This document shows positions 8,484 through 22,641 of a stretch of DNA of 64,000 nucleotides, piece after piece; positions within the stretch are counted from its first letter, which is position 1, and each line of letters opens with the position of its first letter. The notes below the pieces were generated by a model. The model saw only the letters and a program-made list of their open reading frames with translations. It searched no databases and had not been told where the DNA came from. This DNA is from a candidate division WOR-3 bacterium (lineage in GTDB: Bacteria; Hydrothermota; Hydrothermia; JBDRYB01): NCBI GenBank assembly GCA_039803205.1, contig JBDRYB010000001.1, forward strand, positions 23,998 through 87,997, given 5' to 3'. The translations under genes were made by a program, and so were the position numbers.

Positions 8484-10283
8484 ATGAGAGCCCTCCTGTT
8501 GATCCCTTGGGGTTGTGGGCTTATCCTTGCCCAGGAGAAGATCCTGATCCCCATGGATGCCTCTCAAACAGACCATCTCAGAGCATATGGTGTTGCCTAC
8601 AGGACACTGGCAAGGGGGGTTAATGTTGAGTGGCTTTTGAACTGGGAAGGGGGGAGCTTCATGTGCGATCACAACAAGGCTACAGCGGCCGAGTGCGATT
8701 CCCTCGGGGTTTTATATAGGGTAATATCCCCGTCCGAGGCCTCATCCATACACGCGCGGATAGAGGAGGCGAACGCGAACGCGGTTCTTCTTGAAAAGGC
8801 ACCCAGGGTAGCGGTCTACATCCCGCCATACGAGGAACCATGGGACGATGCAGTTTCCCTTGCTCTTGAATACGCTGGAATACCCTATGACAGGATATGG
8901 GACAGGGAGGTTCTCTCGGGCCAGCTCAGGAAATACGACTGGCTTCACCTTCATCACGAGGACTTCACGGGCCAGTATGGCAAGTTCTATGGTTCATACC
9001 GAAACGCTCCGTGGTATCTTCAACAGGTTGAGATAAACGAGGCGATCGCGAAGGAGCTGGGATACCCCAATGTCCCTGAGGAAAAAAAGGCAGTCGCGAG
9101 GGCAATAAGGGAATATGTATCGGGGGGAGGGTTTCTGTTCGCGATGTGCTCGGGGCCCATTACCATGGACATAGCGCTTGCCGCGGAGGGCATTGACATC
9201 ACCGAGGAGGTGTATGACGGGGATCCGCCTGACCCGGATTTCCAATCAAGGCTTGATTTCAGCAAGGCCATGGCTCTCAAGGACGCGCGGCTCATAACCA
9301 GCCCATACATATACGAGCACTCAGATGTTGATGTAACACGGGAGGCGAGTCTGAGGGGCGAAAATACATATTTCAGCCTCTTTGAGTTCTCAGCGAAATT
9401 TGACCCCGTGCCCACCATGCTCACCCAGGACCACACTGGGGTTGTCAAGGAGTTCATGGGCCAGGATACGGGTTTCCGGAAGGACAAGCTTAAGCCAGAA
9501 GTGGTCGTAATGGGCCAGGTGGAGGGAACCGAGGAGGCAAAATACATATACGGGGCCTACGGAAAGGGCTTCTTCAGCTTTCTCGGAGGCCATGACCCTG
9601 AGGACTACCAGCACATGGTAGGCGACCCCCCGACGGACCTCAGACTCCACAGAAACAGCCCAGGCTACAGGCTCATACTCAACAATGTGCTTTTCCCAGC
9701 GGCCAAAAGGGAAAAATTAAAGACATCGGCGCCCGGATGGGGTTTTGCTCTGGTTGGTGGGCCGAGATACACGACCGCGGCTGGGCATGAATCGCCGGGC
9801 CTGTCCTGGGAAATAAGCGCGCTTGGACTCATGGGAATCTCCGCGGGACTAACGAGCGGCCTTGGTTTCGGATTATCATGGTTTGATAGCAGGTCAGGGG
9901 ATCTTCCGAATGGGGGCTGCGGCGAGGGTTACCTGGGGAAAGGTTTCAACGGAAGGCTCACTCTTATATGGGATCCCATGGCTGAAAGGATCTCGCAAAC
10001 CATCAGGCCACGGCTTACAGCAGAGGCTATCCTTTTCGGCATCCATTACCGCTATGAAGAAAGGGGTGCAGGTGGAACCCGTGTCTCTCCATGCACCTGG
10101 CGCGTTTTGCCTGTCATCCAGATGAGCGCTGGAGCGACCCTGGGGCCTCATCTGCAGATTGATCTTTCTGTTGCGACCGGGGCGGCCGCGCCAGGAGTCC
10201 ATCCCGGTGAAACAATCGGTTATCCGGCATACCCGTGGTCCTTTGCCCTTACCAGCAGGCTCTGGTCCCAAAAACGCGCATGA
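8484..10283 (+). CDS. secreted hypothetical protein (possible amidotransferase-like fold, possible C-terminal beta-rich domain)
   Basis: Signal-peptide-like N-terminus (MRALLLIPWGCGLILA); GGGFLFAMCSGP motif; stop overlaps the start of the next radical SAM gene. Confidence 0.5.
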   Translation: MRALLLIPWGCGLILAQEKILIPMDASQTDHLRAYGVAYRTLARGVNVEWLLNWEGGSFMCDHNKATAAECDSLGVLYRVISPSEASSIHARIEEANANAVLLEKAPRVAVYIPPYEEPWDDAVSLALEYAGIPYDRIWDREVLSGQLRKYDWLHLHHEDFTGQYGKFYGSYRNAPWYLQQVEINEAIAKELGYPNVPEEKKAVARAIREYVSGGGFLFAMCSGPITMDIALAAEGIDITEEVYDGDPPDPDFQSRLDFSKAMALKDARLITSPYIYEHSDVDVTREASLRGENTYFSLFEFSAKFDPVPTMLTQDHTGVVKEFMGQDTGFRKDKLKPEVVVMGQVEGTEEAKYIYGAYGKGFFSFLGGHDPEDYQHMVGDPPTDLRLHRNSPGYRLILNNVLFPAAKREKLKTSAPGWGFALVGGPRYTTAAGHESPGLSWEISALGLMGISAGLTSGLGFGLSWFDSRSGDLPNGGCGEGYLGKGFNGRLTLIWDPMAERISQTIRPRLTAEAILFGIHYRYEERGAGGTRVSPCTWRVLPVIQMSAGATLGPHLQIDLSVATGAAAPGVHPGETIGYPAYPWSFALTSRLWSQKRA

Positions 10284-11626
10284 TAATCGCAGAACCCCAG
10301 CTGATTGAACGCCTCGCTCTTTGGGCAATAAAGGAGCGAATTCCATTTCTGGGGCACTTTGGTCTCACGAGGCACTGCAACCTCATGTGCAGTTTCTGTC
10401 TGTGGGGGAAAAAACTGAAGCCTCGCGGTTTCATGTCACAGTTCCTTTTCAAAAAAGCCCTCTCGGAAATGAAGGAAATGGGCACCTTTGAGATAGAGCT
10501 GACGGGGGGCGATCCTCTTCTTCATCCGCATCTGCCTGATTTCATAAGGATAGCAACCGATCTCAGATTCGTGATAGCGATAACAACCAACGGCCTCAGG
10601 TTAACAGAAAGAAACCTGTCTGCGATAAAGGAGGGCCTGATCGCGCATGTTTCAGTGAGCATTCACGGAGCTAAGCCCGAAACCCACGACAGAATAGTGG
10701 GAAGACCAGGGGCCTGGAATATATCCCTCCGCAACATGGAGAAGCTTCTGGATAGTGGCGTAAGAACTATTGTTTGCTTCGTGATCACCAAGGAAAATCA
10801 CCAGGAAGTCAAAAATGCCAAAGCCCTCTTTGAGAGCATGGGAGCCAGGTTTCAGATGGTCCTGAAGTTGTATAATCCCTTCTGTCTTGAAGAAGTTGAG
10901 GCCTTGAAGCTCAGGGGCCATGCCCTCGCGGATCTGATGGGCCTCTTCCCTGATCCGCCGGTGTGCCCTCATCCTTGCGGCGCTTTCATGAACGCGGTAT
11001 ATATCAACCCCAACGGAGATGTTTGGCCCTGTATATCATTTCCCTTTAACCTGGGCAACATCGGTAAAACTAGCTTCAGGGAAATATGGGAAGGGATAAA
11101 CAAGGAGACCAGGGCGCTCCGGAGAAACCTTGTCCGCGCGAGAGAGAAGGGAGTCTACCGCGGAGTAGAGTATTTTTGCCCATCAATAAGTCGTGGATAT
11201 GACGGTTCTCTGGGAGGCCTTGAACCCCATGTAAAGGAGATAATAGACGCCTGGTTGAATGAGAGAAACGAATCGGCCAAGAGCAATTTTTCCCTGGATG
11301 AAGTAGTGTCCCCGGACAGACAAATCGCTATAAAGCTCGGGGAAAATCATGGATTCGTTCCCGAGGACGATGTTGCCTTCAGGTTACTGAGGGGAAGGGA
11401 AGAGACCTACCTTGTTCTTTGGAAGAGATCCACGAGGAGATATGCGGCTCTGGAGGGTCCCTGGGCGGAAGCGGTGAGCTGTATCCTCTCTGGCCAAAGG
11501 ATCAAGGATGCCCTAAAAATTTTGGAATCATCATTTAAGGGGTTCCGCATGAGCGAGGCCATAGTGGACATGGAAGCTCTTCTCAGCGAAATAGCCGGCA
11601 TGGGTTTCATCAAACTTGCCATTTGA
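10280..11626 (+). CDS. radical SAM/SPASM domain protein with C-terminal PqqD-like (RRE-like) extension
   Basis: CNLMCSFC radical SAM motif; cysteine-rich SPASM region (CPHPCGAF...WPCISFP, CPSIS); about 90-aa C-terminal tail resembling PqqD-type peptide-binding domains. Confidence 0.8.
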   Translation: MIIAEPQLIERLALWAIKERIPFLGHFGLTRHCNLMCSFCLWGKKLKPRGFMSQFLFKKALSEMKEMGTFEIELTGGDPLLHPHLPDFIRIATDLRFVIAITTNGLRLTERNLSAIKEGLIAHVSVSIHGAKPETHDRIVGRPGAWNISLRNMEKLLDSGVRTIVCFVITKENHQEVKNAKALFESMGARFQMVLKLYNPFCLEEVEALKLRGHALADLMGLFPDPPVCPHPCGAFMNAVYINPNGDVWPCISFPFNLGNIGKTSFREIWEGINKETRALRRNLVRAREKGVYRGVEYFCPSISRGYDGSLGGLEPHVKEIIDAWLNERNESAKSNFSLDEVVSPDRQIAIKLGENHGFVPEDDVAFRLLRGREETYLVLWKRSTRRYAALEGPWAEAVSCILSGQRIKDALKILESSFKGFRMSEAIVDMEALLSEIAGMGFIKLAI

Positions 11627-11664
11627 TCCGGATCACTTATCCGGATTCATGGCCCGGTTAAGCG

Positions 11665-11829
11665 CTATTCCTTTTTCGGAGGCGGCGGTGCTGCCTTAGC
11701 GACCCCTGTGAGGCTCAGGACATCAGCATTCCTTTCCGTGGCCAATATCCTCGGTTTCTCGTAAGGCTTTACCACACGGTCCTTTATCCTCGGGACCCTT
11801 CTTCCCTTATCCTCAGAAGATTTTGCCAT
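11665..11829 (-). CDS. candidate small basic protein (54 aa), unannotated
   Basis: Manual translation MAKSSEDKGRRVPRIKDRVVKPYEKPRILATERNADVLSLTGVAKAAPPPPKKE; AAGGA about 10 nt upstream of ATG; could be a chance ORF. Confidence 0.2.
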   Translation of the reverse strand: MAKSSEDKGRRVPRIKDRVVKPYEKPRILATERNADVLSLTGVAKAAPPPPKKE

Positions 11830-11843
11830 AATTATATCCTTCA

Positions 11844-12176
11844 TGGAGGCGGGGGGATTCGAACCCCCGTCCAGAGACCCAACCCGTAAAGCACCTACAC
11901 GCTTAGCTCGCCCTATTAACGCTCTGGAGGCTGGGCGAGCGAGCCCTTCCAGAGGTTTGCCCCTCTGTTTAACCGGACCCGCGGGGCACGAGCCCGGCGA
12001 CCCCGGATCTATGAGGCCCTTCTGGCGCGTCCGGGGAGCGCGGCCAGAGAACCTACGCCCTCAATTAGGCGTATGCGTATGCCTTTTCGGCAGTTATCTT
12101 TGCCGCTTTTTACGGGATGCGGCAACCCGACGTGCGCTTTATCGGGTCTATGGCCCTGTCAAGACCATTCGCCCCC
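11844..12176 (-). ncRNA. ssrA: transfer-messenger RNA (tmRNA, SsrA)
   Basis: 5' GGGGGCG pairs with 3' CGCCUCC acceptor stem including a G3:U70 pair, discriminator A, T-arm GGGGGUUCGAAUCCCCC; internal resume region GUAAAAAGCGGCAAAGAUAACU-GCC...UAA; CCA not encoded; the plus-strand ORF 11843..12184 is its antisense shadow. Confidence 0.85.
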
Positions 12177-12252
12177 AAAGCTAAGGCATATATAATAAAG
12201 GTTTTGCCGTGGAGGATCAAGTGCTTTTATGAGCGGGAATCTCTGGGACCCT

Positions 12253-12807
12253 CTAAATATCAATCAAAATCACCTTTATTGGCACGGCTGGAAAATGCCT
12301 CTTTAACCTCTCAATGTCCTCAATAAGCTGCTCTCCGTAGGAAACGCCGGATGACATTTCCTTGTGTAAGGCATAGGCAGGGACTATTTCTACGCCAGCA
12401 TCACAGTGGCCCTCGTTAAAGAAATACTGGAACTTAGCAAGATCGTAGAACATGAAAGCATACTTGCCCAGCTGAACTTCAACCAGAACCCTATCCTTCT
12501 GGAAATCTATCTGTTTAAACACCTTCACTGAATCAGAAACAAGTCTTTCGTCTTCGTATGGAAACCTCATATCATGATAGCTGCGGAGCTCCTTGAAGCC
12601 TCGCTTTGCAAACGCCCACCTGAACGCTCGGTTCATTTCCTTCGGATCGTAAAGGAGCTTACCTATCTTACCTTTCTCCTTGCTGATCTTGGTCTTCGTA
12701 GCTTGCACTTCTTCTATGATCTCGTCTATTTCGGACTCAATTACAGGGTATCTAACTCTCAATATCTCAAGCCCGCCCAAGTGCGAATACTCATAAACCT
12801 TTCTCAT
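12253..12807 (-). CDS. type II restriction endonuclease, BglII/BamHI-like fold (putative)
   Basis: 184 aa immediately downstream of and overlapping a DNA methyltransferase gene; D-x9-E-V-Q arrangement (IDFQKDRVLVEVQ) resembles the BglII active site; AT-richer than surroundings. Confidence 0.55.
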   Translation of the reverse strand: MRKVYEYSHLGGLEILRVRYPVIESEIDEIIEEVQATKTKISKEKGKIGKLLYDPKEMNRAFRWAFAKRGFKELRSYHDMRFPYEDERLVSDSVKVFKQIDFQKDRVLVEVQLGKYAFMFYDLAKFQYFFNEGHCDAGVEIVPAYALHKEMSSGVSYGEQLIEDIERLKRHFPAVPIKVILIDI

Positions 12808-13766
12808 AAGAGACTATCCTCCCAGGGTTGTTTTTTACCCGGCGGCTCATATATGGGCGTCCCCATCTCCCGAAGTCTAAGCTTGCCGCAGGAGAACAAA
12901 TTCAACCTTTCAAGCCCTATTTTGTAATATCTTTCATTTATCTCTGCTCCGACAAAGCGCCTTCTGTGCTTTATGGCCGCAATCGCGGATGAAGCCACGC
13001 CCATGAATGGATCGAAGACCCACTCGTCCTCGTTTGTTAATGAGAGGACAAGTCTCTCTATCAGCTCAACCGGAAACTGAGCTGGGTGCTCGGTCTTCTC
13101 CGGGTGATTACACTTGACATTCGGTATATCCCAGACATCTGTAGGGTTCTTGCCTAGGGGATTACAGGAAGGCTTACCTTTATTCGGCCCTTTGTGGAAC
13201 TTCTTGCCCGGATACCTCTGAGGAACCCGAACAGCATCAAGGTTAAAGACATAGGGCTCGCCCTTAGTGAACCACATTATAACCTCGTATCTACCAGAAA
13301 ATCTCTTGGACGCGTGAAGCCCGTGCCTGAAGTGCCATACTATCCGGTTGCGCATTACGAGGCCGAGATCCCTGAAAATAGGATAAAGCAGATAATCTAT
13401 TGGGATTATACTGCTGTTTTTAACCCAATTTCCGACCTGCCAGCATATAGAACCCCCGGTCTTTGTCACTCGTAAAGCCTCTTTTATTATCTCTCTGTGC
13501 CACCTTACATATTCATCAAGATCCATCTTTTGCTCGTATTCCTTGCCTATGTTGTATGGAGGAGAGGTTACTGTGAGCTGGACGCTTTCATCCGGTATGA
13601 AACGCACCAGATCAAAAGCTGAGCCCAGATAAAGGCAGGCCTGTGCAGAGCTATCATAGGTGTTCGTTATCCGTATTTCTCTCTGTTGGTGGGGAACATC
13701 CAACAGAACCGAAGCCTTGCCATTCAGAAGATCAGAAAGAATCCCCAAAGAATCTCGCTCTGCCAT
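12804..13766 (-). CDS. DNA methyltransferase, beta-class (N4-cytosine or N6-adenine)
   Basis: TSPPY motif IV near the N-terminus and DPFMGVASS motif I near the C-terminus (order IV then I). Confidence 0.85.
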   Translation of the reverse strand: MAERDSLGILSDLLNGKASVLLDVPHQQREIRITNTYDSSAQACLYLGSAFDLVRFIPDESVQLTVTSPPYNIGKEYEQKMDLDEYVRWHREIIKEALRVTKTGGSICWQVGNWVKNSSIIPIDYLLYPIFRDLGLVMRNRIVWHFRHGLHASKRFSGRYEVIMWFTKGEPYVFNLDAVRVPQRYPGKKFHKGPNKGKPSCNPLGKNPTDVWDIPNVKCNHPEKTEHPAQFPVELIERLVLSLTNEDEWVFDPFMGVASSAIAAIKHRRRFVGAEINERYYKIGLERLNLFSCGKLRLREMGTPIYEPPGKKQPWEDSLL

Positions 13767-13793
13767 GGAAACAAATTATAATCTTTTCGGCCC

Positions 13794-14822
13794 CTACGGT
13801 TCAAACACCCCAGGAACCCTCACTCCGCAATCCGGACACCTCCCCTCCTTTAACCTATTTTCAAGAAGGGAAAACCGCCACCTCCTTATGAGGGTTTTCC
13901 CGCAGGATGGGCAACGGGTATCCTCAAGCCCTCTCATTTCCCTGTTCCCGGGGTATACGAACAGTAAGCCCTCTTCACGGCCTATCTCCATGGCTTTCGT
14001 GATGGAGGAGACAGAAGTCGGGGGGATGCTGTGGACCTTGTAGGCAGGGTAAAAACCGGAGATGTGCCACGGGGTCTCAGGGCCAAGCTCCTGAGCTACG
14101 AACCTGGCCATTTCTCTGATCTCCCCCTCAGAATCGTTCACCCCTGGAACAAGGAGGGTGGTTACCTCAACCCACACCCCCATGCTCTTCATTATTTTCA
14201 ACGCATTCATCACTGGCCTAGGCCTCCCGCCGGTCCATTTCTGCATGGAGGACTTGTTCACAAACTTGAAATCAACATTGGCCGCGTCCAACAATCCCTT
14301 CAACTCACAAAGCGGTTTCGGGTTTATGAACCCATTCGTAACCCAATTGTTCTTTAGGCCTCGCTCCTTCGCCATTCTCATGGTGTCTAAAGCATATTCA
14401 TAGTATATCGTGGGTTCGGTGTATGTGTAGCTTATTGAGGGAACTCCAGCGCTCAGCGCGGCCCTGACTATCTCATTTGGCGGAACCTGTTTTCTCGCAA
14501 GGGCATCCATGGTCCTGGGCTCAAGAACCGGCAGTTGGCTTATCTCCCAGTTTTGGCACCAGAGGCAGGATAGATTACAGCCGGGCGCGGCAACCGAGAG
14601 GCTCGCGGTTCCTGGCAGAAAGTGATAGAGCGGCTTTTTTTCAATGGGGTCTATGTGCGCGGCAATGAGAACGCCGTAATTCAGGCTGATGAGCTCATGG
14701 CCCCGTCTCTCCCTAACCCCGCAGGTGCCGCGCTCGCCTTCTCTGAGCCTACAAGAATGGGGGCACAGGTTGCAGATGATCTCCTGATCCTTCTGGGTGA
14801 AAAAAAGCGCCTTTCTGCTCAT
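13794..14822 (-). CDS. AmmeMemoRadiSam-system radical SAM enzyme (AmrS-like)
   Basis: CNLCPHSC plus CNLSCLWCQNWEIS motifs and HIDPIEKKPLYHFLPG block typical of the AmrS / PFL-activase-like family. Confidence 0.75.
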   Translation of the reverse strand: MSRKALFFTQKDQEIICNLCPHSCRLREGERGTCGVRERRGHELISLNYGVLIAAHIDPIEKKPLYHFLPGTASLSVAAPGCNLSCLWCQNWEISQLPVLEPRTMDALARKQVPPNEIVRAALSAGVPSISYTYTEPTIYYEYALDTMRMAKERGLKNNWVTNGFINPKPLCELKGLLDAANVDFKFVNKSSMQKWTGGRPRPVMNALKIMKSMGVWVEVTTLLVPGVNDSEGEIREMARFVAQELGPETPWHISGFYPAYKVHSIPPTSVSSITKAMEIGREEGLLFVYPGNREMRGLEDTRCPSCGKTLIRRWRFSLLENRLKEGRCPDCGVRVPGVFEP

Positions 14823-14876
14823 CAAAACCCCCATAATAGCGGGAATATCACCTGGGCAACCATGGAGGGATTGCCC

Positions 14877-15998
14877 TTACTTCAGTTCAAAGATGTAATC
14901 AACCTCAAAAACCTCATCCTTCTCCGTGTAATACCTCCAGGACTTCACATTGCTAACAGCCGCGTTGTCCAGGGTCTGACTCCCTGAGCTCACCACAACC
15001 TCAACCCTATCAACCACGCCTTTCTTCTTGAGATATACCCTCAGAGTCGCTGTTCCGGCCTCCCAGTTTTCCTTCGCGGCTTTCGGATAGTCCAGGTTCG
15101 GCTTCTCCTTTATCTCAACCCCTGAGGGCTTCCTTATCTTCGTGGTGACCTGAGCAATGGCGGGGGTTTTTTTCGGTTTTCCGCTTATATCAAGCTCCGG
15201 AGTCGGGGTCTGGAGCCCTCCGGTGTATATTCCTCCAGCCGAGGGAAGCTGGGAACCTATCGTGAACTGGAACGAGATAAACCCCGTGTCAATAACCTCA
15301 GCCTTGGCAAAAACCCACCCCTTGGCGCACTCTATGGCCGCGTCGTCAAGGAGCTTTGAACCGGATGAGCTGTCAATCTTCGCTTGAGCAACAGTTCCTG
15401 ACTTTGAAACCACAACCTGAACCCTCACGGTTCCCTGAACCGACTTATCAAGCGCCTCCTTTGGGTATTCCGTGGAAGGGCTCTTGATCTTCTTCCGGAT
15501 CGCAACCGGGCCTTCTAGGGCTACTTTTACAAAGCCACTCTTCTTTACCCCTTCTGTTCCAAGAGAACCCGCGCCTATATCAATTACAGGGGACGGGGTC
15601 GTGCCAAGGCCGCCTACGCCCGTGGCGCCTATTTCCAGGAGGCCTGATCCCATGATAAACCTGAAAACAGCCACCCCGGTATCAGCCTTATCTCCCTTCG
15701 CGAAAACCCACCCTTTGACACAGTTCAGGGCAGCTGTGTCAAGGAGATTTGAGCCTGATGAGGAATCAACCCTTGACTTTGTCACCGTTCCAGCCTTTGA
15801 GACGACAAACCATATCCTCACTGTCCCCTGAATGGAATCGTCTAGAGCCTCCTGCGGATACTGGGGAGATGGGTTCTTGACCTTCTCCCTGAGAGCCACC
15901 GAGCCCTCCAGGGTAATCTTTACCGTGCCAGCCTTCTGCGCCTCAAGCTCAACTGAGAGCTGAGACAAAATACCCAATATCAAGAAATAAGGCATCAT
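14877..15998 (-). CDS. secreted protein with three tandem TonB C-terminal-like domains
   Basis: Three internal repeats of about 80 aa each with YP..A......G.V.....V...G.V.......SSGS..LD.AA...VK.W.F pattern; hydrophobic N-terminus. Confidence 0.7.
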   Translation of the reverse strand: MMPYFLILGILSQLSVELEAQKAGTVKITLEGSVALREKVKNPSPQYPQEALDDSIQGTVRIWFVVSKAGTVTKSRVDSSSGSNLLDTAALNCVKGWVFAKGDKADTGVAVFRFIMGSGLLEIGATGVGGLGTTPSPVIDIGAGSLGTEGVKKSGFVKVALEGPVAIRKKIKSPSTEYPKEALDKSVQGTVRVQVVVSKSGTVAQAKIDSSSGSKLLDDAAIECAKGWVFAKAEVIDTGFISFQFTIGSQLPSAGGIYTGGLQTPTPELDISGKPKKTPAIAQVTTKIRKPSGVEIKEKPNLDYPKAAKENWEAGTATLRVYLKKKGVVDRVEVVVSSGSQTLDNAAVSNVKSWRYYTEKDEVFEVDYIFELK

Positions 15999-16038
15999 GG
16001 CTTAATTATAAGGTCTAGCTGGGGTCTGAATTCAAGCT

Positions 16039-20196: not shown

Positions 20197-21006
20197 TCAT
20201 TTCCTTATAAGCTTATTCAACAATTCTTCGCCTCTGGTAGTTCCAACCTCACGAAATACATCCAAAACAGCTTCGTAAGAACCTTCACCACCAATAAAAT
20301 CCCAGAATTCTTTGCCAATTAATATCTCATTATTCAGATCAAATAAAGAGAGGGTAAATCCCCACTTATAATTCACCTTTTCTTCGCCCCAGGGATTATA
20401 GGGGAAGCAAAATTTATAAACTCCATTCGGACCAATACCTGCTATAAAATAAAGGAACTTTTCTTTAGTTTGTGAACAAACATCCTTATTTGGCTCCGGA
20501 CTTTTTATCTCAAAAAAGTATTTTTTATCATTTTTATCCTCCAAATAAAGATCAGCTCTCAACAGAATCTCTTGACCTTCACTAGAAGAAGGCTCCAACC
20601 GAGGCAAGGGGGGTGGCGGATAGGGTCTCTCCTTCTTCCTTTTTACATTTTCTATAAAGGTAGCAATTGATTCCTTTATCCTATTATTTGTAGGAATTGC
20701 AAGGGTATAGTTTCGTTCCACCTTAACCCAAAAAGTATTATCGCTAGCTATAAGTTGTGCAATGTACTCAAATACCCCTTGCCCCAATGAAGTGTCAAAC
20801 GATCTGAAAAAGCTATGAAGTCTAAGAAAGTGGGGAGGAAGCAAAGCGGTGTGGAATGGCTTATATTTTCCTTTTTTAGGATCTAACCATACCTGTTTTA
20901 TAACAGCATTTTTCACAACATCCGGATCATACTTATTGACCAGACCTTGCAAAAATCCTTCTAGATATCCGATTATATTCTTTCGCGTAGTATCTTTTAG
21001 TTTCAT
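20197..21006 (-). CDS. putative type II restriction endonuclease
   Basis: 269-aa ORF directly downstream of and overlapping a DNA methyltransferase gene in a markedly AT-rich segment; assignment by context only. Confidence 0.4.
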   Translation of the reverse strand: MKLKDTTRKNIIGYLEGFLQGLVNKYDPDVVKNAVIKQVWLDPKKGKYKPFHTALLPPHFLRLHSFFRSFDTSLGQGVFEYIAQLIASDNTFWVKVERNYTLAIPTNNRIKESIATFIENVKRKKERPYPPPPLPRLEPSSSEGQEILLRADLYLEDKNDKKYFFEIKSPEPNKDVCSQTKEKFLYFIAGIGPNGVYKFCFPYNPWGEEKVNYKWGFTLSLFDLNNEILIGKEFWDFIGGEGSYEAVLDVFREVGTTRGEELLNKLIRK

Positions 21007-22373
21007 TCTTTGTATCCTTTCTGTAGAAATAAAACATATTCATATCTAAGTTTCGCAAACCCCCCCAGAATTGGCCTTCTCATAGCATAGACATCAGAAA
21101 AGCCTATTTCTGGAGCCCAGCTCTCTATCTTTTGACAAAAGTCGGTTCTTTTCCCGTCCACCACTACATCTCCCAATACTATGGCGGCCCATGCTCCTGG
21201 TTTCAGAACCCGGTGCATCTCTTCAACGCTTTTTCTAATGTCCTCCTCGTAGAACAATAATTTTTTATCTTTACCCCCCCTTAGACCCACCATTTGCTCT
21301 CTTAGCGGCGAGGTATCTATGCCCAAATAAGTAAGCAAGTGAAAGTCATTCTTCACATAGTCCAGGGCAATACTGTAAGGTGGGGAGGTTATTATTCCCG
21401 TTATGCTGTTGTCAGTGACCGGAAGGGCCATGGCCGAAGCAAGCTTTATCTCCGGTGCTTTAGGTTCCAGATTTAATTTCTTTAGAGTGAAATAGGTTCC
21501 CTTTATTGTCTGAAGGTATTCCGAAAGATTGATCAGGAAGAACTTTTCAAAAGACTTTTCTTTGGCTGTGCCCTTTAGATAAGTATAATCGGACAGGGCA
21601 TGTAGATATGCTAACAGCAGGAAATTCCTTATCTCAAAAGGTAGTTCTTTGATTTGAGAAGAGGGAAAACGAAATTCCCAGACATAATCAAGAATTTCTT
21701 TGGCATCAACCGGTTCGCTTTCGGGTAAGAATTTCTTGGTTTCAAGCTTTGCCGTCTTAAAGTATTCAAATATTCGTAACGGGGAACCTATCTGGTTTAT
21801 CGCGCTGTTCAGCTCATCATAGTTAATTCTCAGAGAATCTGTTTTTATTTGGGACACAATGCAAAGCGCAGGATTAATGTCTATCCCCAGTCCACCGGTT
21901 CTGAGGAGCGCTGTTTCCACAAGGGTGGTTCCTGATCCCAAAAACGGATCAAGGATGATATCCTCCTCGCCGGCGCCCATGAAGTTTATTATAGCCTTGA
22001 TCATCTGGCCGTGAAACTTGCCCTTGTAAGGGTAGAACCAGTGGGTCATGTATTGATTGCTATTTCCTATCTGACCCTTACCCCTTACTTTGGCTATTGA
22101 GGAGTGATAGCTGGGTTTCCCATCTACTATTTCAAAGTATGCTGACCTTTTCCGGAAGAGATCAAGGTCCTTCCCTAAGGTGGAGAACTCCATCCTTGCC
22201 AATTGAAGCTCATAAATCTGGCCAGCATCATCAAAGAGTTTGAAGCCGTTTCCGGGAAGGATGCCGCCAGTAGCCCAGGAAACAGGATCTATGGATTCTC
22301 CAAGAACACTCCGTAGAGAGACGGCATTCTCTTCTGTTTTTACTGGAAACAAGGCCTTTGCCTTCACCTTCAT
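21003..22373 (-). CDS. DNA methyltransferase (motif I DPFLGSGTT, motif IV TSPPY)
   Basis: Both MTase motifs present; start set at ATG 22373 preceded by GGAGG, just downstream of the purS stop. Confidence 0.8.
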   Translation of the reverse strand: MKVKAKALFPVKTEENAVSLRSVLGESIDPVSWATGGILPGNGFKLFDDAGQIYELQLARMEFSTLGKDLDLFRKRSAYFEIVDGKPSYHSSIAKVRGKGQIGNSNQYMTHWFYPYKGKFHGQMIKAIINFMGAGEEDIILDPFLGSGTTLVETALLRTGGLGIDINPALCIVSQIKTDSLRINYDELNSAINQIGSPLRIFEYFKTAKLETKKFLPESEPVDAKEILDYVWEFRFPSSQIKELPFEIRNFLLLAYLHALSDYTYLKGTAKEKSFEKFFLINLSEYLQTIKGTYFTLKKLNLEPKAPEIKLASAMALPVTDNSITGIITSPPYSIALDYVKNDFHLLTYLGIDTSPLREQMVGLRGGKDKKLLFYEEDIRKSVEEMHRVLKPGAWAAIVLGDVVVDGKRTDFCQKIESWAPEIGFSDVYAMRRPILGGFAKLRYEYVLFLQKGYKE

Positions 22374-22389
22374 ATTATACACCTCCCCT

Positions 22390-22641
22390 TCATTCCCTCT
22401 CCTCCATCTCATACCAGAACCTCTCTATTACCGGATTGGTGAGGAGTCTGCGGGACACATCCTCTATCTGAGCGCGCGCTGAGGCCTCGTCCGGAGCCTC
22501 AAGCGAAAACCGAACTATCTTTCCAACGCGCCCCTCTGAGACCGAAAGCCCAAGCCGCCTCATCGCGGCCTCAACAGCCATGCCCTGTGGATCTCTGAGA
22601 TCGTCGTGGGGCAGAATGAAGACATGAACCAGGTATCTCAT
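22390..22641 (-). CDS. purS: phosphoribosylformylglycinamidine synthase subunit PurS
   Basis: 83 aa with typical PurS sequence; adjacent to purC. Confidence 0.85.
   Translation of the reverse strand: MRYLVHVFILPHDDLRDPQGMAVEAAMRRLGLSVSEGRVGKIVRFSLEAPDEASARAQIEDVSRRLLTNPVIERFWYEMEERE

What the first reader, a model, noticed from the sequence alone, without database searches (positions are those of the whole stretch)
12253..13766. AT-richer restriction-modification pair beside the tmRNA gene
A beta-class DNA methyltransferase (SPPY motif first, FxGxG motif last) overlaps a 184-aa ORF with a BglII-like D-x9-E-x-Q catalytic arrangement. The pair is visibly lower in GC than the flanking genes and begins about 80 bp from the 5' end of ssrA. 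It looks horizontally acquired, though it lies on the 5' side of ssrA rather than at the classical 3' integration site, and no integrase is present.
Basis: partly seen in the sequence, partly recalled or inferred. Interest (0 to 1): 0.5.

Follow-up and report, generated by a model that had tools for sequence, protein, structure and literature searches.

The report
BstYI-type restriction-modification pair beside ssrA
This is an ordinary, apparently working two-gene restriction-modification defence system of the well-known BstYI/BglII type in an uncultured WOR-3 bacterium. It is an old resident that has moved or decayed in related lineages, and it sits next to the tmRNA gene by accident rather than as a tmRNA-targeted island.

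Summary
On the minus strand, a 320-aa beta-class DNA methyltransferase (13766..12804) overlaps by 4 nt (ATGA) a 184-aa endonuclease (12807..12253). The endonuclease gene ends 76 nt before ssrA.

The endonuclease is BstYI-like (45.6% identity; PDB E=1.7e-34; model TM 0.87) rather than BglII-like (E=0.009). Three details need correcting:
- The catalytic motif is D101-x8-E110-x-Q112, not x9.
- Methyltransferase motif I is FxGxA, not FxGxG.
- The pair has 46.4% GC against 53.5% for the window, but GC3 is only 1.1-1.3 SD low.

The "recent island at ssrA" reading is not supported:
- A related lineage carries a decayed remnant of the same M-R pair at the same place, just after the orthologous radical-SAM gene.
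- Other relatives carry the intact pair at a different locus.
- The 5' neighbour of ssrA differs in every lineage, whereas its promoter and 3' side are conserved.
- dN/dS is 0.06-0.09 and dS exceeds 1.

So this is an old, selected and occasionally relocated Type IIP R-M system. It probably makes m4C at RGATCY. A strong AGATCT-only depletion leaves its exact specificity open. It is a new member of a known kind and of low interest.

The parts
12804..13766 (-). M gene: 320-aa beta-class amino-DNA-methyltransferase. Motif IV is SPPY at residue 68 and motif I is DPFMGVAS at 252. Probably N4-cytosine-specific.
   Evidence: PF01555 1.7e-54. PADLOC MTase_II 2.6e-80. PDB beta-class MTases down to 5e-34. 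SPPY is present in 118 of the 120 closest homologues. dN/dS 0.09.
12253..12807 (-). R gene: 184-aa BstYI-type Type IIP restriction endonuclease with catalytic D101, E110 and Q112.
   Evidence: PF09195 1.5e-19. PADLOC REase_II 1.5e-37. BstYI 1sdo E=1.7e-34 against BglII 0.0088. 45.6% identity to BstYI, and D/E/Q, K115 and the M-S-S/T-G motif are conserved in 122 sequences. AlphaFold model pLDDT 83, best PDB match the BstYI-DNA complex at TM 0.87. dN/dS 0.06.
12804..12807 (-). ATGA overlap of the M stop and the R start. It suggests translational coupling, M first. GGGAGG lies at 12823..12818.
   Evidence: Read directly from the sequence. The coupling itself is inferred.
13775..13804 (-). Promoter-like site for the M-R operon: TTGAAC-18-TATAAT, 10 of 12 matches. 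The -35 overlaps the end of the radical-SAM gene, and the -10 ends 8 nt before the M ATG. No Shine-Dalgarno is present, so the mRNA may be leaderless.
   Evidence: Consensus scan and sequence. It is a consensus match only and has not been shown to function.
12221..12252 (-). Junction between the R-M block and the conserved ssrA unit. Homology with the cassette copies L006 and L004 ends at 12249-12250. Homology with the ssrA loci of relatives begins at about 12226.
   Evidence: blastn and alignment A1. No terminator-like site lies on this strand. No flanking direct or inverted repeats exceed chance.
12192..12220 (-). ssrA's own promoter, TTGATC-17-TATTAT, conserved in all four related ssrA loci. 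It is context, not part of the R-M system.
11841..12176 (-). ssrA (tmRNA), tag AEKAYAYA*. It is the neighbour, not part of the system.
   Evidence: ARAGORN. Rfam RF00023 153.3 bits.
13794..14834 (-). AmmeMemoRadiSam-type radical-SAM gene. It is the conserved upstream anchor, with the TonB-like gene at 14877-15998. The cassette, or its remnant in L023/L024, follows this gene's stop codon.
   Evidence: Pfam. A source's name for homologue P0241. Synteny.

Best explanation
This is a functional, chromosomally resident Type IIP restriction-modification system of the BstYI family in a candidate-division WOR-3 bacterium.

How it most likely works:
- The two genes form one operon, M then R, joined by an ATGA overlap. 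Methylase is therefore made with or before nuclease (inferred).
- M is a beta-class amino-methyltransferase with the SPPY catalytic motif. It most likely makes N4-methylcytosine in the GATC-centred hexamer on both strands (inferred from the motif and from what is known of M.BamHI, M.BglII and M.BstYI).
- R is a small PD-(D/E)xK-type enzyme, presumably a homodimer. It uses D101, E110 and Q112 with Mg2+ to cut unmethylated R^GATCY (or a subset, AGATCT), leaving 5'-GATC overhangs. This destroys incoming phage or plasmid DNA.

History:
- The pair is not a recent arrival. It sat directly downstream of the TonB/radical-SAM gene pair before the window's lineage and the L023 lineage diverged.
- In L023 it has since been deleted down to a remnant of about 90 nt.
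- Other relatives hold it intact at a second locus, between an ATP-synthase-like ATPase gene and a peptidase M1 gene.
- Its position 76 nt from ssrA results from a lineage-specific rearrangement. That rearrangement joined the [TonB-rSAM-M-R] block to the conserved [ssrA promoter-ssrA-59aa-SPASM] block.
For: Identity of the genes:
- Family and structure matches for both proteins.
- BstYI recognises R/GATCY (PMC2731914, PMC3413111).
- Beta-class motif IV is DPPY or SPPY. M.BamHI and M.BglII are N4mC enzymes, and M.BstYI possibly is too (PMC2890505).

Functionality:
- Intact ORFs are found in at least four lineages.
- All catalytic and DNA-contact positions that align with BstYI are invariant.
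- dN/dS is 0.06-0.09 with dS above 0.9.
- AGATCT occurs 2 times against 15-24 expected in the window. It is the most depleted 6-bp palindrome among those with an adequate expected count.

Age and locus:
- L023 and L024 come from two different metagenomes. Both carry M codons 104-118 (38 of 45 nt; score 55 against a null maximum of 31) followed by R codons about 167-180 (p about 0.001). The fragments are colinear and start 13 nt after the radical-SAM stop codon.
- The intact pair at 76-88% amino-acid identity lies between the ATPase and peptidase M1 genes in L004, L005, L006 and L030.
- L006 and L025 belong to the same MAG. Its radical-SAM locus has no significant trace of the cassette.
- DNA homology between copies stops at the ORF ends.

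ssrA:
- The four related ssrA loci share the promoter and the 3' side with the window but have different 5' neighbours.
Against: - No biochemical or methylome data exist. Specificity and the methylated base are inferred.
- Motif I carries G->A at the second glycine, which could weaken AdoMet binding. An intact R gene under purifying selection argues that M still protects.
- Site avoidance does not fit RGATCY neatly. AGATCT has O/E about 0.1 and GGATCC 0.5-0.7, but AGATCC/GGATCT is not depleted (0.8-1.2).
- The remnant in L023 could in principle come from an independent insertion at the same spot rather than from shared ancestry.
- The promoter assignment is a consensus match only.
Confidence: 0.85

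Rival explanations
1. One reading: a recently acquired genomic islet whose insertion is connected with the tmRNA gene.
For: - Raw GC is 7 points below the window mean, z = -2.56.
- The pair lies 76 nt from ssrA.
- The family is widely transferred and is found on plasmids, phages and an integrase-bearing element.
Against: - It lies on the 5' side of ssrA.
- No integrase lies within about 10 kb, and there are no flanking repeats above chance.
- The 3' side of ssrA is syntenic in four relatives, so nothing is integrated there.
- ssrA's 5' neighbour differs in each lineage.
- A remnant of the pair lies at the radical-SAM locus, with no ssrA nearby, in L023/L024.
- dS between copies is saturated, like that of the neighbouring host gene.
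- GC3 is only 1.1-1.3 SD low, and the cassette is about 5-6 GC points below its host contig in all three lineages. Low GC is therefore a stable property of these genes.
Confidence: 0.07
2. The system is a BstYI-scaffold enzyme pair whose true specificity is narrower, AGATCT only (as in BglII), rather than RGATCY.
For: - In the window AGATCT is 7- to 12-fold under-represented under Markov orders 1-4 (2 observed against 15-24 expected; Poisson p 2e-6 to 3e-5). AGATCC/GGATCT is at expectation.
- Contigs of relatives with an intact pair, pooled with the window, also show few AGATCT sites (5 observed against about 27 expected). The lineage with the decayed pair, plus L021, shows none of this (12 against about 9).
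- R lacks about 19 residues of the BstYI region 80-110.
Against: - The residues aligned to BstYI K133 and S172 are identical in the window protein. That these are the base-contacting residues is recalled from the BstYI-DNA structure paper; I could not retrieve it to check.
- GGATCC is also depleted, in lineages both with and without the pair.
- Palindromes are generally under-represented here (median O/E 0.82).
- Another AGATCT-specific system elsewhere in the genome cannot be excluded.
- Only 64 kb plus about 50 kb of sequence was available.
- It is unknown whether the 'decayed' lineages have another copy elsewhere.
Confidence: 0.15
3. The pair is a decaying or inactive relic, for example a dead methylase with FxGxA in motif I, kept only by chance.
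For: - The G->A change in motif I is absent from most homologues.
- The same pair has demonstrably decayed in the L023 lineage.
Against: - Both ORFs are full length in the window and in three 99%-identical contigs.
- dN/dS is 0.06-0.09 across lineages that all carry the G->A or similar change.
- Catalytic residues are invariant.
- An active R with a dead M would be lethal, and a dead R would not be kept under such constraint.
Confidence: 0.05

Closest known systems
BstYI restriction-modification system (Geobacillus stearothermophilus Y406; R.BstYI structures 1SDO, 1VRR, 2P0J; recognises R^GATCY)
   Same: - R aligns full length at 45.6% identity, E=1.7e-34.
- D119/E128/Q130 correspond to D101/E110/Q112.
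- The G-K-Y motif (K133) and the M-S-S-G motif (S172) are conserved.
- The predicted fold matches the BstYI-DNA complex at TM 0.87.
- It is paired with an amino-methyltransferase of the kind thought to make N4mC (PMC2890505).
   Different: - R is 19 residues shorter (184 aa against 203), with deletions in BstYI region 80-110.
- The host is an uncultured WOR-3 bacterium.
- The genomic avoidance pattern favours AGATCT over the mixed RGATCY sites.
- Specificity has not been measured.
BglII restriction-modification system (AGATCT; R.BglII structures 1D2I, 1DFM, 1ES8)
   Same: - Same Pfam family (PF09195).
- Same D-x8-E-x-Q active-site arrangement.
- M.BglII is an N4mC enzyme (PMC2890505).
- AGATCT is the site most avoided in this window.
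   Different: - Sequence similarity is only marginal (E=0.0088, partial alignment).
- BglII has a controller (C) gene, and its R gene precedes M (from my memory of the BglII cloning paper, not checked here).
- Here there is no room for a C gene: 27 nt separate the radical-SAM stop from the M start. The order is M then R, overlapping.
BamHI / OkrAI (GGATCC)
   Same: More distant structural relatives of the same alpha/beta nuclease core (Foldseek E about 1e-5, TM 0.55-0.64). The recognition site is GATC-centred, and M.BamHI is N4mC.
   Different: Sequence identity is 11-14%. The catalytic motif differs (E-x-E rather than E-x-Q; established knowledge).
Mobile R-M units and R-M-linked rearrangements (Furuta, Abe & Kobayashi 2010, PMC2853133)
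   Same: - The same two-gene unit is found at different chromosomal loci in related genomes.
- It sits at a synteny breakpoint.
- It is decayed in one lineage.
   Different: No integrase, transposase, target duplication or flanking inverted or direct repeats could be detected at any of the three copies examined. The mechanism of movement is not visible.

Membership tests
BglII/BstYI family Type II restriction endonuclease (Pfam PF09195) | Profile match above the curated threshold | tested here: met
   70.8 bits against a cut-off of 26, covering 4-162 of 163 profile positions. NCBI names the 99%-identical protein 'BglII/BstYI family type II restriction endonuclease'.
BglII/BstYI family Type II restriction endonuclease (Pfam PF09195) | Catalytic D ... 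E-x-Q aligned with BstYI D119/E128/Q130 | tested here: met
   D101, E110 and Q112 are invariant in 122 aligned family members.
BglII/BstYI family Type II restriction endonuclease (Pfam PF09195) | BstYI/BglII-type alpha/beta nuclease fold | tested here: met
   AlphaFold2 model pLDDT 83, pTM 0.80. The best PDB match is 1vrr_A (BstYI-DNA), E=4e-16, TMq 0.87. This is a predicted structure, not a solved one.
BglII/BstYI family Type II restriction endonuclease (Pfam PF09195) | Mg2+-dependent cleavage at a GATC-centred hexamer (R^GATCY or A^GATCT) | not testable with these tools
   There is only indirect evidence. AGATCT is about 8-fold and GGATCC about 1.5- to 2-fold under-represented, and the mixed sites are not under-represented.
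Beta-class N4/N6 amino-DNA-methyltransferase (Pfam PF01555) | Profile match and permuted motif order (IV before I) | tested here: met
   185.5 bits against a cut-off of 26.7. SPPY at residue 68 and DPFMGVAS at 252.
Beta-class N4/N6 amino-DNA-methyltransferase (Pfam PF01555) | Canonical AdoMet motif I, FxGxG | tested here: not met
   The motif is F-M-G-V-A. Most of the 120 closest homologues have FxGxG, and only the closest relatives have A or M at this position. This is a conservative variant and does not argue against membership of the family.
N4-cytosine-specific methyltransferase | Product is N4-methylcytosine; motif IV is SPPY/SPPF rather than DPPY | tested here: inconclusive
   SPPY is present here and in 118 of 120 homologues. 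[quoted passage not shown] However, the best PDB and NCBIfam matches are adenine enzymes. The methylated base itself cannot be determined here.
ssrA/tRNA-targeted genomic island | Integrase (tyrosine or serine recombinase) within the element | tested here: not met
   The gene calls of L001 show no recombinase or transposase domain for about 10 kb on either side.
ssrA/tRNA-targeted genomic island | Insertion at the 3' end of the RNA gene, bounded by a direct repeat of that end | tested here: not met
   The pair lies 5' of ssrA. The 3' side is syntenic in four relatives. No repeat of ssrA sequence was found in 9000-16000.
C-protein-controlled Type II R-M (BglII, PvuII, BamHI type) | Small HTH controller gene upstream of R | tested here: not met
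   Only 27 nt lie between the radical-SAM stop and the M start, and M overlaps R. No additional ORF is present.
Repeat-flanked mobile R-M unit (Furuta et al. 2010) | Flanking direct or inverted repeats, or a target duplication | tested here: not met
   The longest shared words at the borders of the window, L006 and L004 copies are 6-7 nt, no better than shuffled sequence.

The most novel reading that the evidence does not exclude
The WOR-3 enzyme may be a natural BstYI-scaffold nuclease, with a shortened region 80-110, whose specificity has narrowed to AGATCT. That is the conversion directed evolution of BstYI achieved only partially (PMC2731914). The AGATCT-only depletion in genomes that carry the intact pair would be its footprint.
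Probability: 0.13. Interest if true: 0.4.

Novelty: new member of a known kind. Interest (0 to 1): 0.15.

Why it matters
It matters little beyond annotation. It adds a BstYI-family R-M system, already named as such by NCBI's pipeline, to an uncultured WOR-3 lineage. Two modest points are of interest:
- The clade gives a clean small example of the life cycle of an R-M cassette: ancestral locus, internal deletion to a roughly 90-nt scar in one lineage, and an intact copy at another locus in others. None of this comes with any visible mobility gene.
- The site-avoidance pattern hints that specificity may differ from BstYI's. If confirmed, that would interest restriction-enzyme engineers.

It also warns against reading "low GC next to ssrA" as an integration event.

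Tried and rejected
- **Genome-contig scan with the radical-SAM protein.** It returned only distant homologues (34-51%) in other phyla and no WOR-3 relatives, so it was useless for synteny. I replaced it with a homologue search plus contig look-ups.
- **Remnants of the cassette after the radical-SAM gene in L025, L021 and L022.** The best local alignments score 21, no better than shuffles (p about 0.25-0.30). The tempting 'GLEILRSKPPA' match in L025 is therefore not claimed.
- **Flanking direct or inverted repeats and target duplications at three cassette copies.** None exceeded chance.
- **An ssrA copy near the radical-SAM loci or locus-B copies of relatives.** None was found.
- **An RGATCY avoidance test.** Dinucleotide shuffles suggested strong depletion (68 against 122). 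Higher-order Markov models show this is mostly AGATCT plus GGATCC, not the whole degenerate set. A family-level test on a 65%-identical homologue's loci was underpowered.
- **Retrieval of the BstYI-DNA structure paper (PMID 15893669) to confirm the roles of K133 and S172.** The paper is not held, so those roles are cited from memory only.
- **NCBIfam.** It gave only sub-threshold matches to adenine-methyltransferase models and none for R.
Full report
**1. What is at the coordinates**

On the minus strand the order is as follows:
- a radical-SAM gene (14834..13794);
- 27 nt of spacer;
- a 320-aa ORF (13766..12804);
- a 184-aa ORF (12807..12253) that overlaps the previous one by ATGA;
- 76 nt of spacer;
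- ssrA (12176..11841; Rfam 153 bits; tag AEKAYAYA*).

The 320-aa protein is a PF01555 N6/N4 DNA methylase (1.7e-54). SPPY lies at residue 68 and the AdoMet motif DPFMGVAS at 252, which is the beta-class permutation. The 184-aa protein matches PF09195 Endonuc-BglII (1.5e-19) and a PADLOC Type II REase model (1.5e-37).

Three details need amending:
- The catalytic spacing is D101-x8-E110-x-Q112.
- Motif I is FxGxA, not FxGxG.
- The enzyme is BstYI-like rather than BglII-like.

**2. The nuclease is a BstYI homologue**

- Against all PDB sequences the best hit is BstYI (1sdo/1vrr/2p0j): E=1.7e-34, full length. BglII reaches only E=0.0088 over a partial stretch.
- In a MAFFT alignment with 120 homologues the window protein is 45.6% identical to BstYI.
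- BstYI D119, E128 and Q130 align with D101, E110 and Q112, and these are invariant in all 122 sequences. So are the G-K-Y motif (BstYI K133 = K115) and M-S-(S/T)-G (BstYI S172 = S153).
- An AlphaFold2 model (pLDDT 83, pTM 0.80) finds the BstYI-DNA complex as its best structural match (TM 0.87, E=4e-16). BamHI and OkrAI follow at TM about 0.55-0.64.
- BstYI cuts R/GATCY (PMC2731914, PMC3413111).
- The window protein is 19 residues shorter than BstYI (184 aa against 203). The deletions fall in BstYI residues about 80-110.

**3. The methyltransferase**

- SPPY occurs in 118 of the 120 closest homologues. Motif I is normally DPFxGVG(S/T), and only the closest relatives have A (or M) in place of the last glycine.
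- According to PMC2890505, beta-class enzymes have DPPY or SPPY. M.BamHI and M.BglII are N4mC enzymes, and M.BstYI possibly is too.
- From general knowledge, BstYI, BglII and BamHI are not blocked by Dam (G6mATC) methylation. That fits protection through the cytosine.
- I therefore infer N4-cytosine methylation. This is not shown, and the closest solved structures and NCBIfam models are adenine enzymes.

**4. Composition**

- The pair has 46.4% GC against a window mean of 53.5% (SD 2.75% for windows of equal length), z = -2.56. Only 2.8% of windows are as low. All the others lie over a second R-M pair at about 20.2-22.4 kb.
- At third codon positions the deviation is modest: 0.525 and 0.538 against 0.608 +/- 0.065. 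R's low GC is largely a GC2 (amino-acid) effect, z = -3.7.
- The homologous cassettes in L006 and L004 are also 5-6 points below their host contigs. Low GC is thus a persistent property of these genes, not a timestamp.

**5. Organism and relatives**

NCBI assigns the 99%-identical R protein to a candidate division WOR-3 bacterium. Three MAG contigs (L001-L003) have the identical arrangement, and L001 is 99.35% identical to the window over 3.4 kb. No recombinase or transposase domain lies within about 10 kb on either side.

**6. The same cassette elsewhere in the clade**

- R proteins of 81-88% identity (M 78-81%) lie in a different context in L004, L005, L006 and L030. There the pair is squeezed between an ATP-synthase-alpha/beta-family ATPase gene and a convergent peptidase M1 gene, with no ssrA nearby.
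- Nucleotide homology between the window and these copies runs from inside M (13637 by blastn, 13748 by tblastx) to 12249-12250. That is 3-4 nt past the R stop codon, so only the two ORFs are shared.
- A further M homologue (81%) follows another methylase and has no R in the next 193 nt (L031).
- No flanking repeats exceed chance at any copy.

**7. The radical-SAM locus in relatives: a scar**

- Radical-SAM orthologues of 71-76% identity were traced to contigs L021-L025. TonB-like plus radical-SAM is the only block these contigs share with the 64-kb window.
- None of them has an R-M pair after the radical-SAM gene.
- In L023 and L024 (two different JGI metagenomes) the 103-nt spacer after the stop codon contains two fragments. 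The first is GYICWQVGNWVKNG, matching M residues 105-118 (38 of 45 nt; local score 55 against a null mean of 18.6 and maximum of 31). The second is LRRHFPADPIKV, matching R residues 168-179 (score 29; 1 of 1000 shuffles reaches it). The fragments are in the right order and orientation.
- This is what internal deletions of an M-R pair sitting exactly where the window has it would leave.
- The four radical-SAM lineages are roughly equidistant, with the window slightly the most distant (71-76% against 76-80%). The simplest reading is that the pair was at this locus in their common ancestor. It was then lost in L023 and lost without detectable trace in L021 and L025 (no significant remnant).
- The MAG that contains L025 holds its intact copy at the second locus (L006).

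**8. The ssrA locus in relatives**

- A scan for the degenerate tag-coding pattern found four related ssrA loci, L026-L029. Their tmRNA is 82-83% identical to the window's.
- All four share with the window the 3' side: a conserved 59-aa ORF, the radical-SAM/SPASM gene and the 605-aa gene. They also share a promoter-like element, TTGATC-17-TATTAT, that ends 16 nt before the tmRNA 5' end.
- Homology stops at about window position 12226.
- Upstream, L029 and L026 have a divergent ABC-transporter permease. L027 has a lysine/glutamate-rich 211-aa ORF. The window has the R-M pair.
- ssrA adjacency is therefore specific to the window's lineage. The junction (12221-12252) is a synteny breakpoint, not an attachment site.

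**9. Is the system alive?**

- Between the window and the L006 and L004 copies, dN/dS is 0.06 for R and 0.09 for M. dS is 0.9 to more than 1.7, similar to the radical-SAM host gene between the same genomes (dS 1.7-2.7, dN/dS 0.07-0.11).
- Both genes have therefore been under purifying selection for a long time. The cassette is about as diverged as the host genes.
- A promoter-like TTGAAC-18-TATAAT ends 8 nt before the M start, and there is no Shine-Dalgarno, so a leaderless mRNA is possible. R has GGGAGG 10 nt upstream of its start.
- No terminator-like site separates R from ssrA on this strand, so read-through into ssrA is possible but not shown.

**10. Site avoidance and specificity**

- RGATCY occurs 68 times against 122 +/- 10 in dinucleotide shuffles. 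Markov models of order 1-4 resolve this as follows:
  - AGATCT: 2 observed against 15-24 expected, O/E 0.08-0.13.
  - GGATCC: 18 against 27-37, O/E 0.5-0.7.
  - AGATCC/GGATCT: 48 against 40-60, O/E 0.8-1.2.
- AGATCT is the most depleted 6-bp palindrome with a usable expectation (p 2e-6 to 3e-5).
- Pooled contigs with an intact pair show 5 AGATCT against about 27 expected (order 3). Contigs of the lineage with the scar, plus L021, show 12 against about 9. GGATCC and the mixed sites do not differ between the two groups.
- This hints at AGATCT specificity. The samples are small, and another system could be responsible. It is also unknown whether the 'scar' lineage has another copy elsewhere.
- By sequence, RGATCY remains the default prediction.

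**11. Comparison with known systems**

This is a member of the BglII/BstYI endonuclease family paired with a beta-class SPPY methyltransferase. It has no controller protein and the order M then R.

It is not an ssrA-targeted island: there is no integrase, it is on the wrong side of the gene, and there is no att repeat. The family is plainly mobile at large:
- Homologues of 63-70% identity occur across bacterial and archaeal phyla.
- It is found on small plasmids and in Burkholderia phages.
- It lies beside an integrase/TraG/relaxase/IS605 element.
- R-M pairs at rearrangement junctions and at varying loci are a described phenomenon (PMC2853133).

**Verdict**

This is a new member of a known kind and of low interest.

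Noticed in passing
window 20197-22412 (-): A second R-M pair: a 269-aa PF09520 (RE_TdeIII/HinfI-type) endonuclease (1.9e-51) and a 469-aa N6_N4 methyltransferase. It is the lowest-GC stretch of the window (minimum 39%), with GC3 of 0.33 and 0.47. Compositionally it is much more foreign than the BstYI-like pair.
   Followed up: partly
whole window 1-64000: Several short palindromes are extremely avoided. ACGT occurs 6 times against about 100 expected, GTAC 6 against about 87, TCGA 18 against about 167, and GCWGC 14 against about 72. GATC itself is near expectation (0.87). This implies several more R-M specificities acting on this genome.
   Followed up: partly
window 11665-11844 (-): A 59-aa ORF whose ATG overlaps the CCA end of ssrA. 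It is conserved at 70% amino-acid identity directly downstream of ssrA in L026, L027 and L029 and has no Pfam match. It lies next to a convergent radical-SAM/SPASM gene (10235-11626, +). It could be a small conserved peptide or a RiPP-type precursor.
   Followed up: partly
window 12192-12226 (-); L026-L029: A highly conserved ssrA promoter block, ACTTGATCYTCCACGGCAAAAMCWTTATTATATAKGCCTT, is shared by all five lineages up to a sharp homology boundary.
   Followed up: yes
L023 9078-9169; L024 1623-1714: A scar of about 90 nt from the M-R pair (M codons 104-118 fused near R codons 167-180), between the radical-SAM stop codon and a convergent 206-aa gene. It is present in two independent metagenomes.
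   Followed up: yes
L021 1-641, L023 1-1071, L025 1-362: Relatives carry an N6_Mtase/Eco57I-type (Type IIG-like) gene about 7 kb upstream of the radical-SAM gene. The neighbourhood is rich in R-M genes in several lineages.
   Followed up: no
L031 290-2088: An M homologue (81% identical) directly follows another N6_N4 methyltransferase gene, with no R gene in the remaining 193 nt of the contig. It may be an orphan copy or a differently organised one.
   Followed up: no
L032-L041 (e.g. L033 7404-12480): A 65%-identical M-R pair (M 297 aa, same 4-nt overlap) sits between a tyrosine integrase and IS605 TnpA/TnpB. It lies beside TraG/T4SS-coupling and relaxase genes, a likely vehicle for this family.
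   Followed up: no
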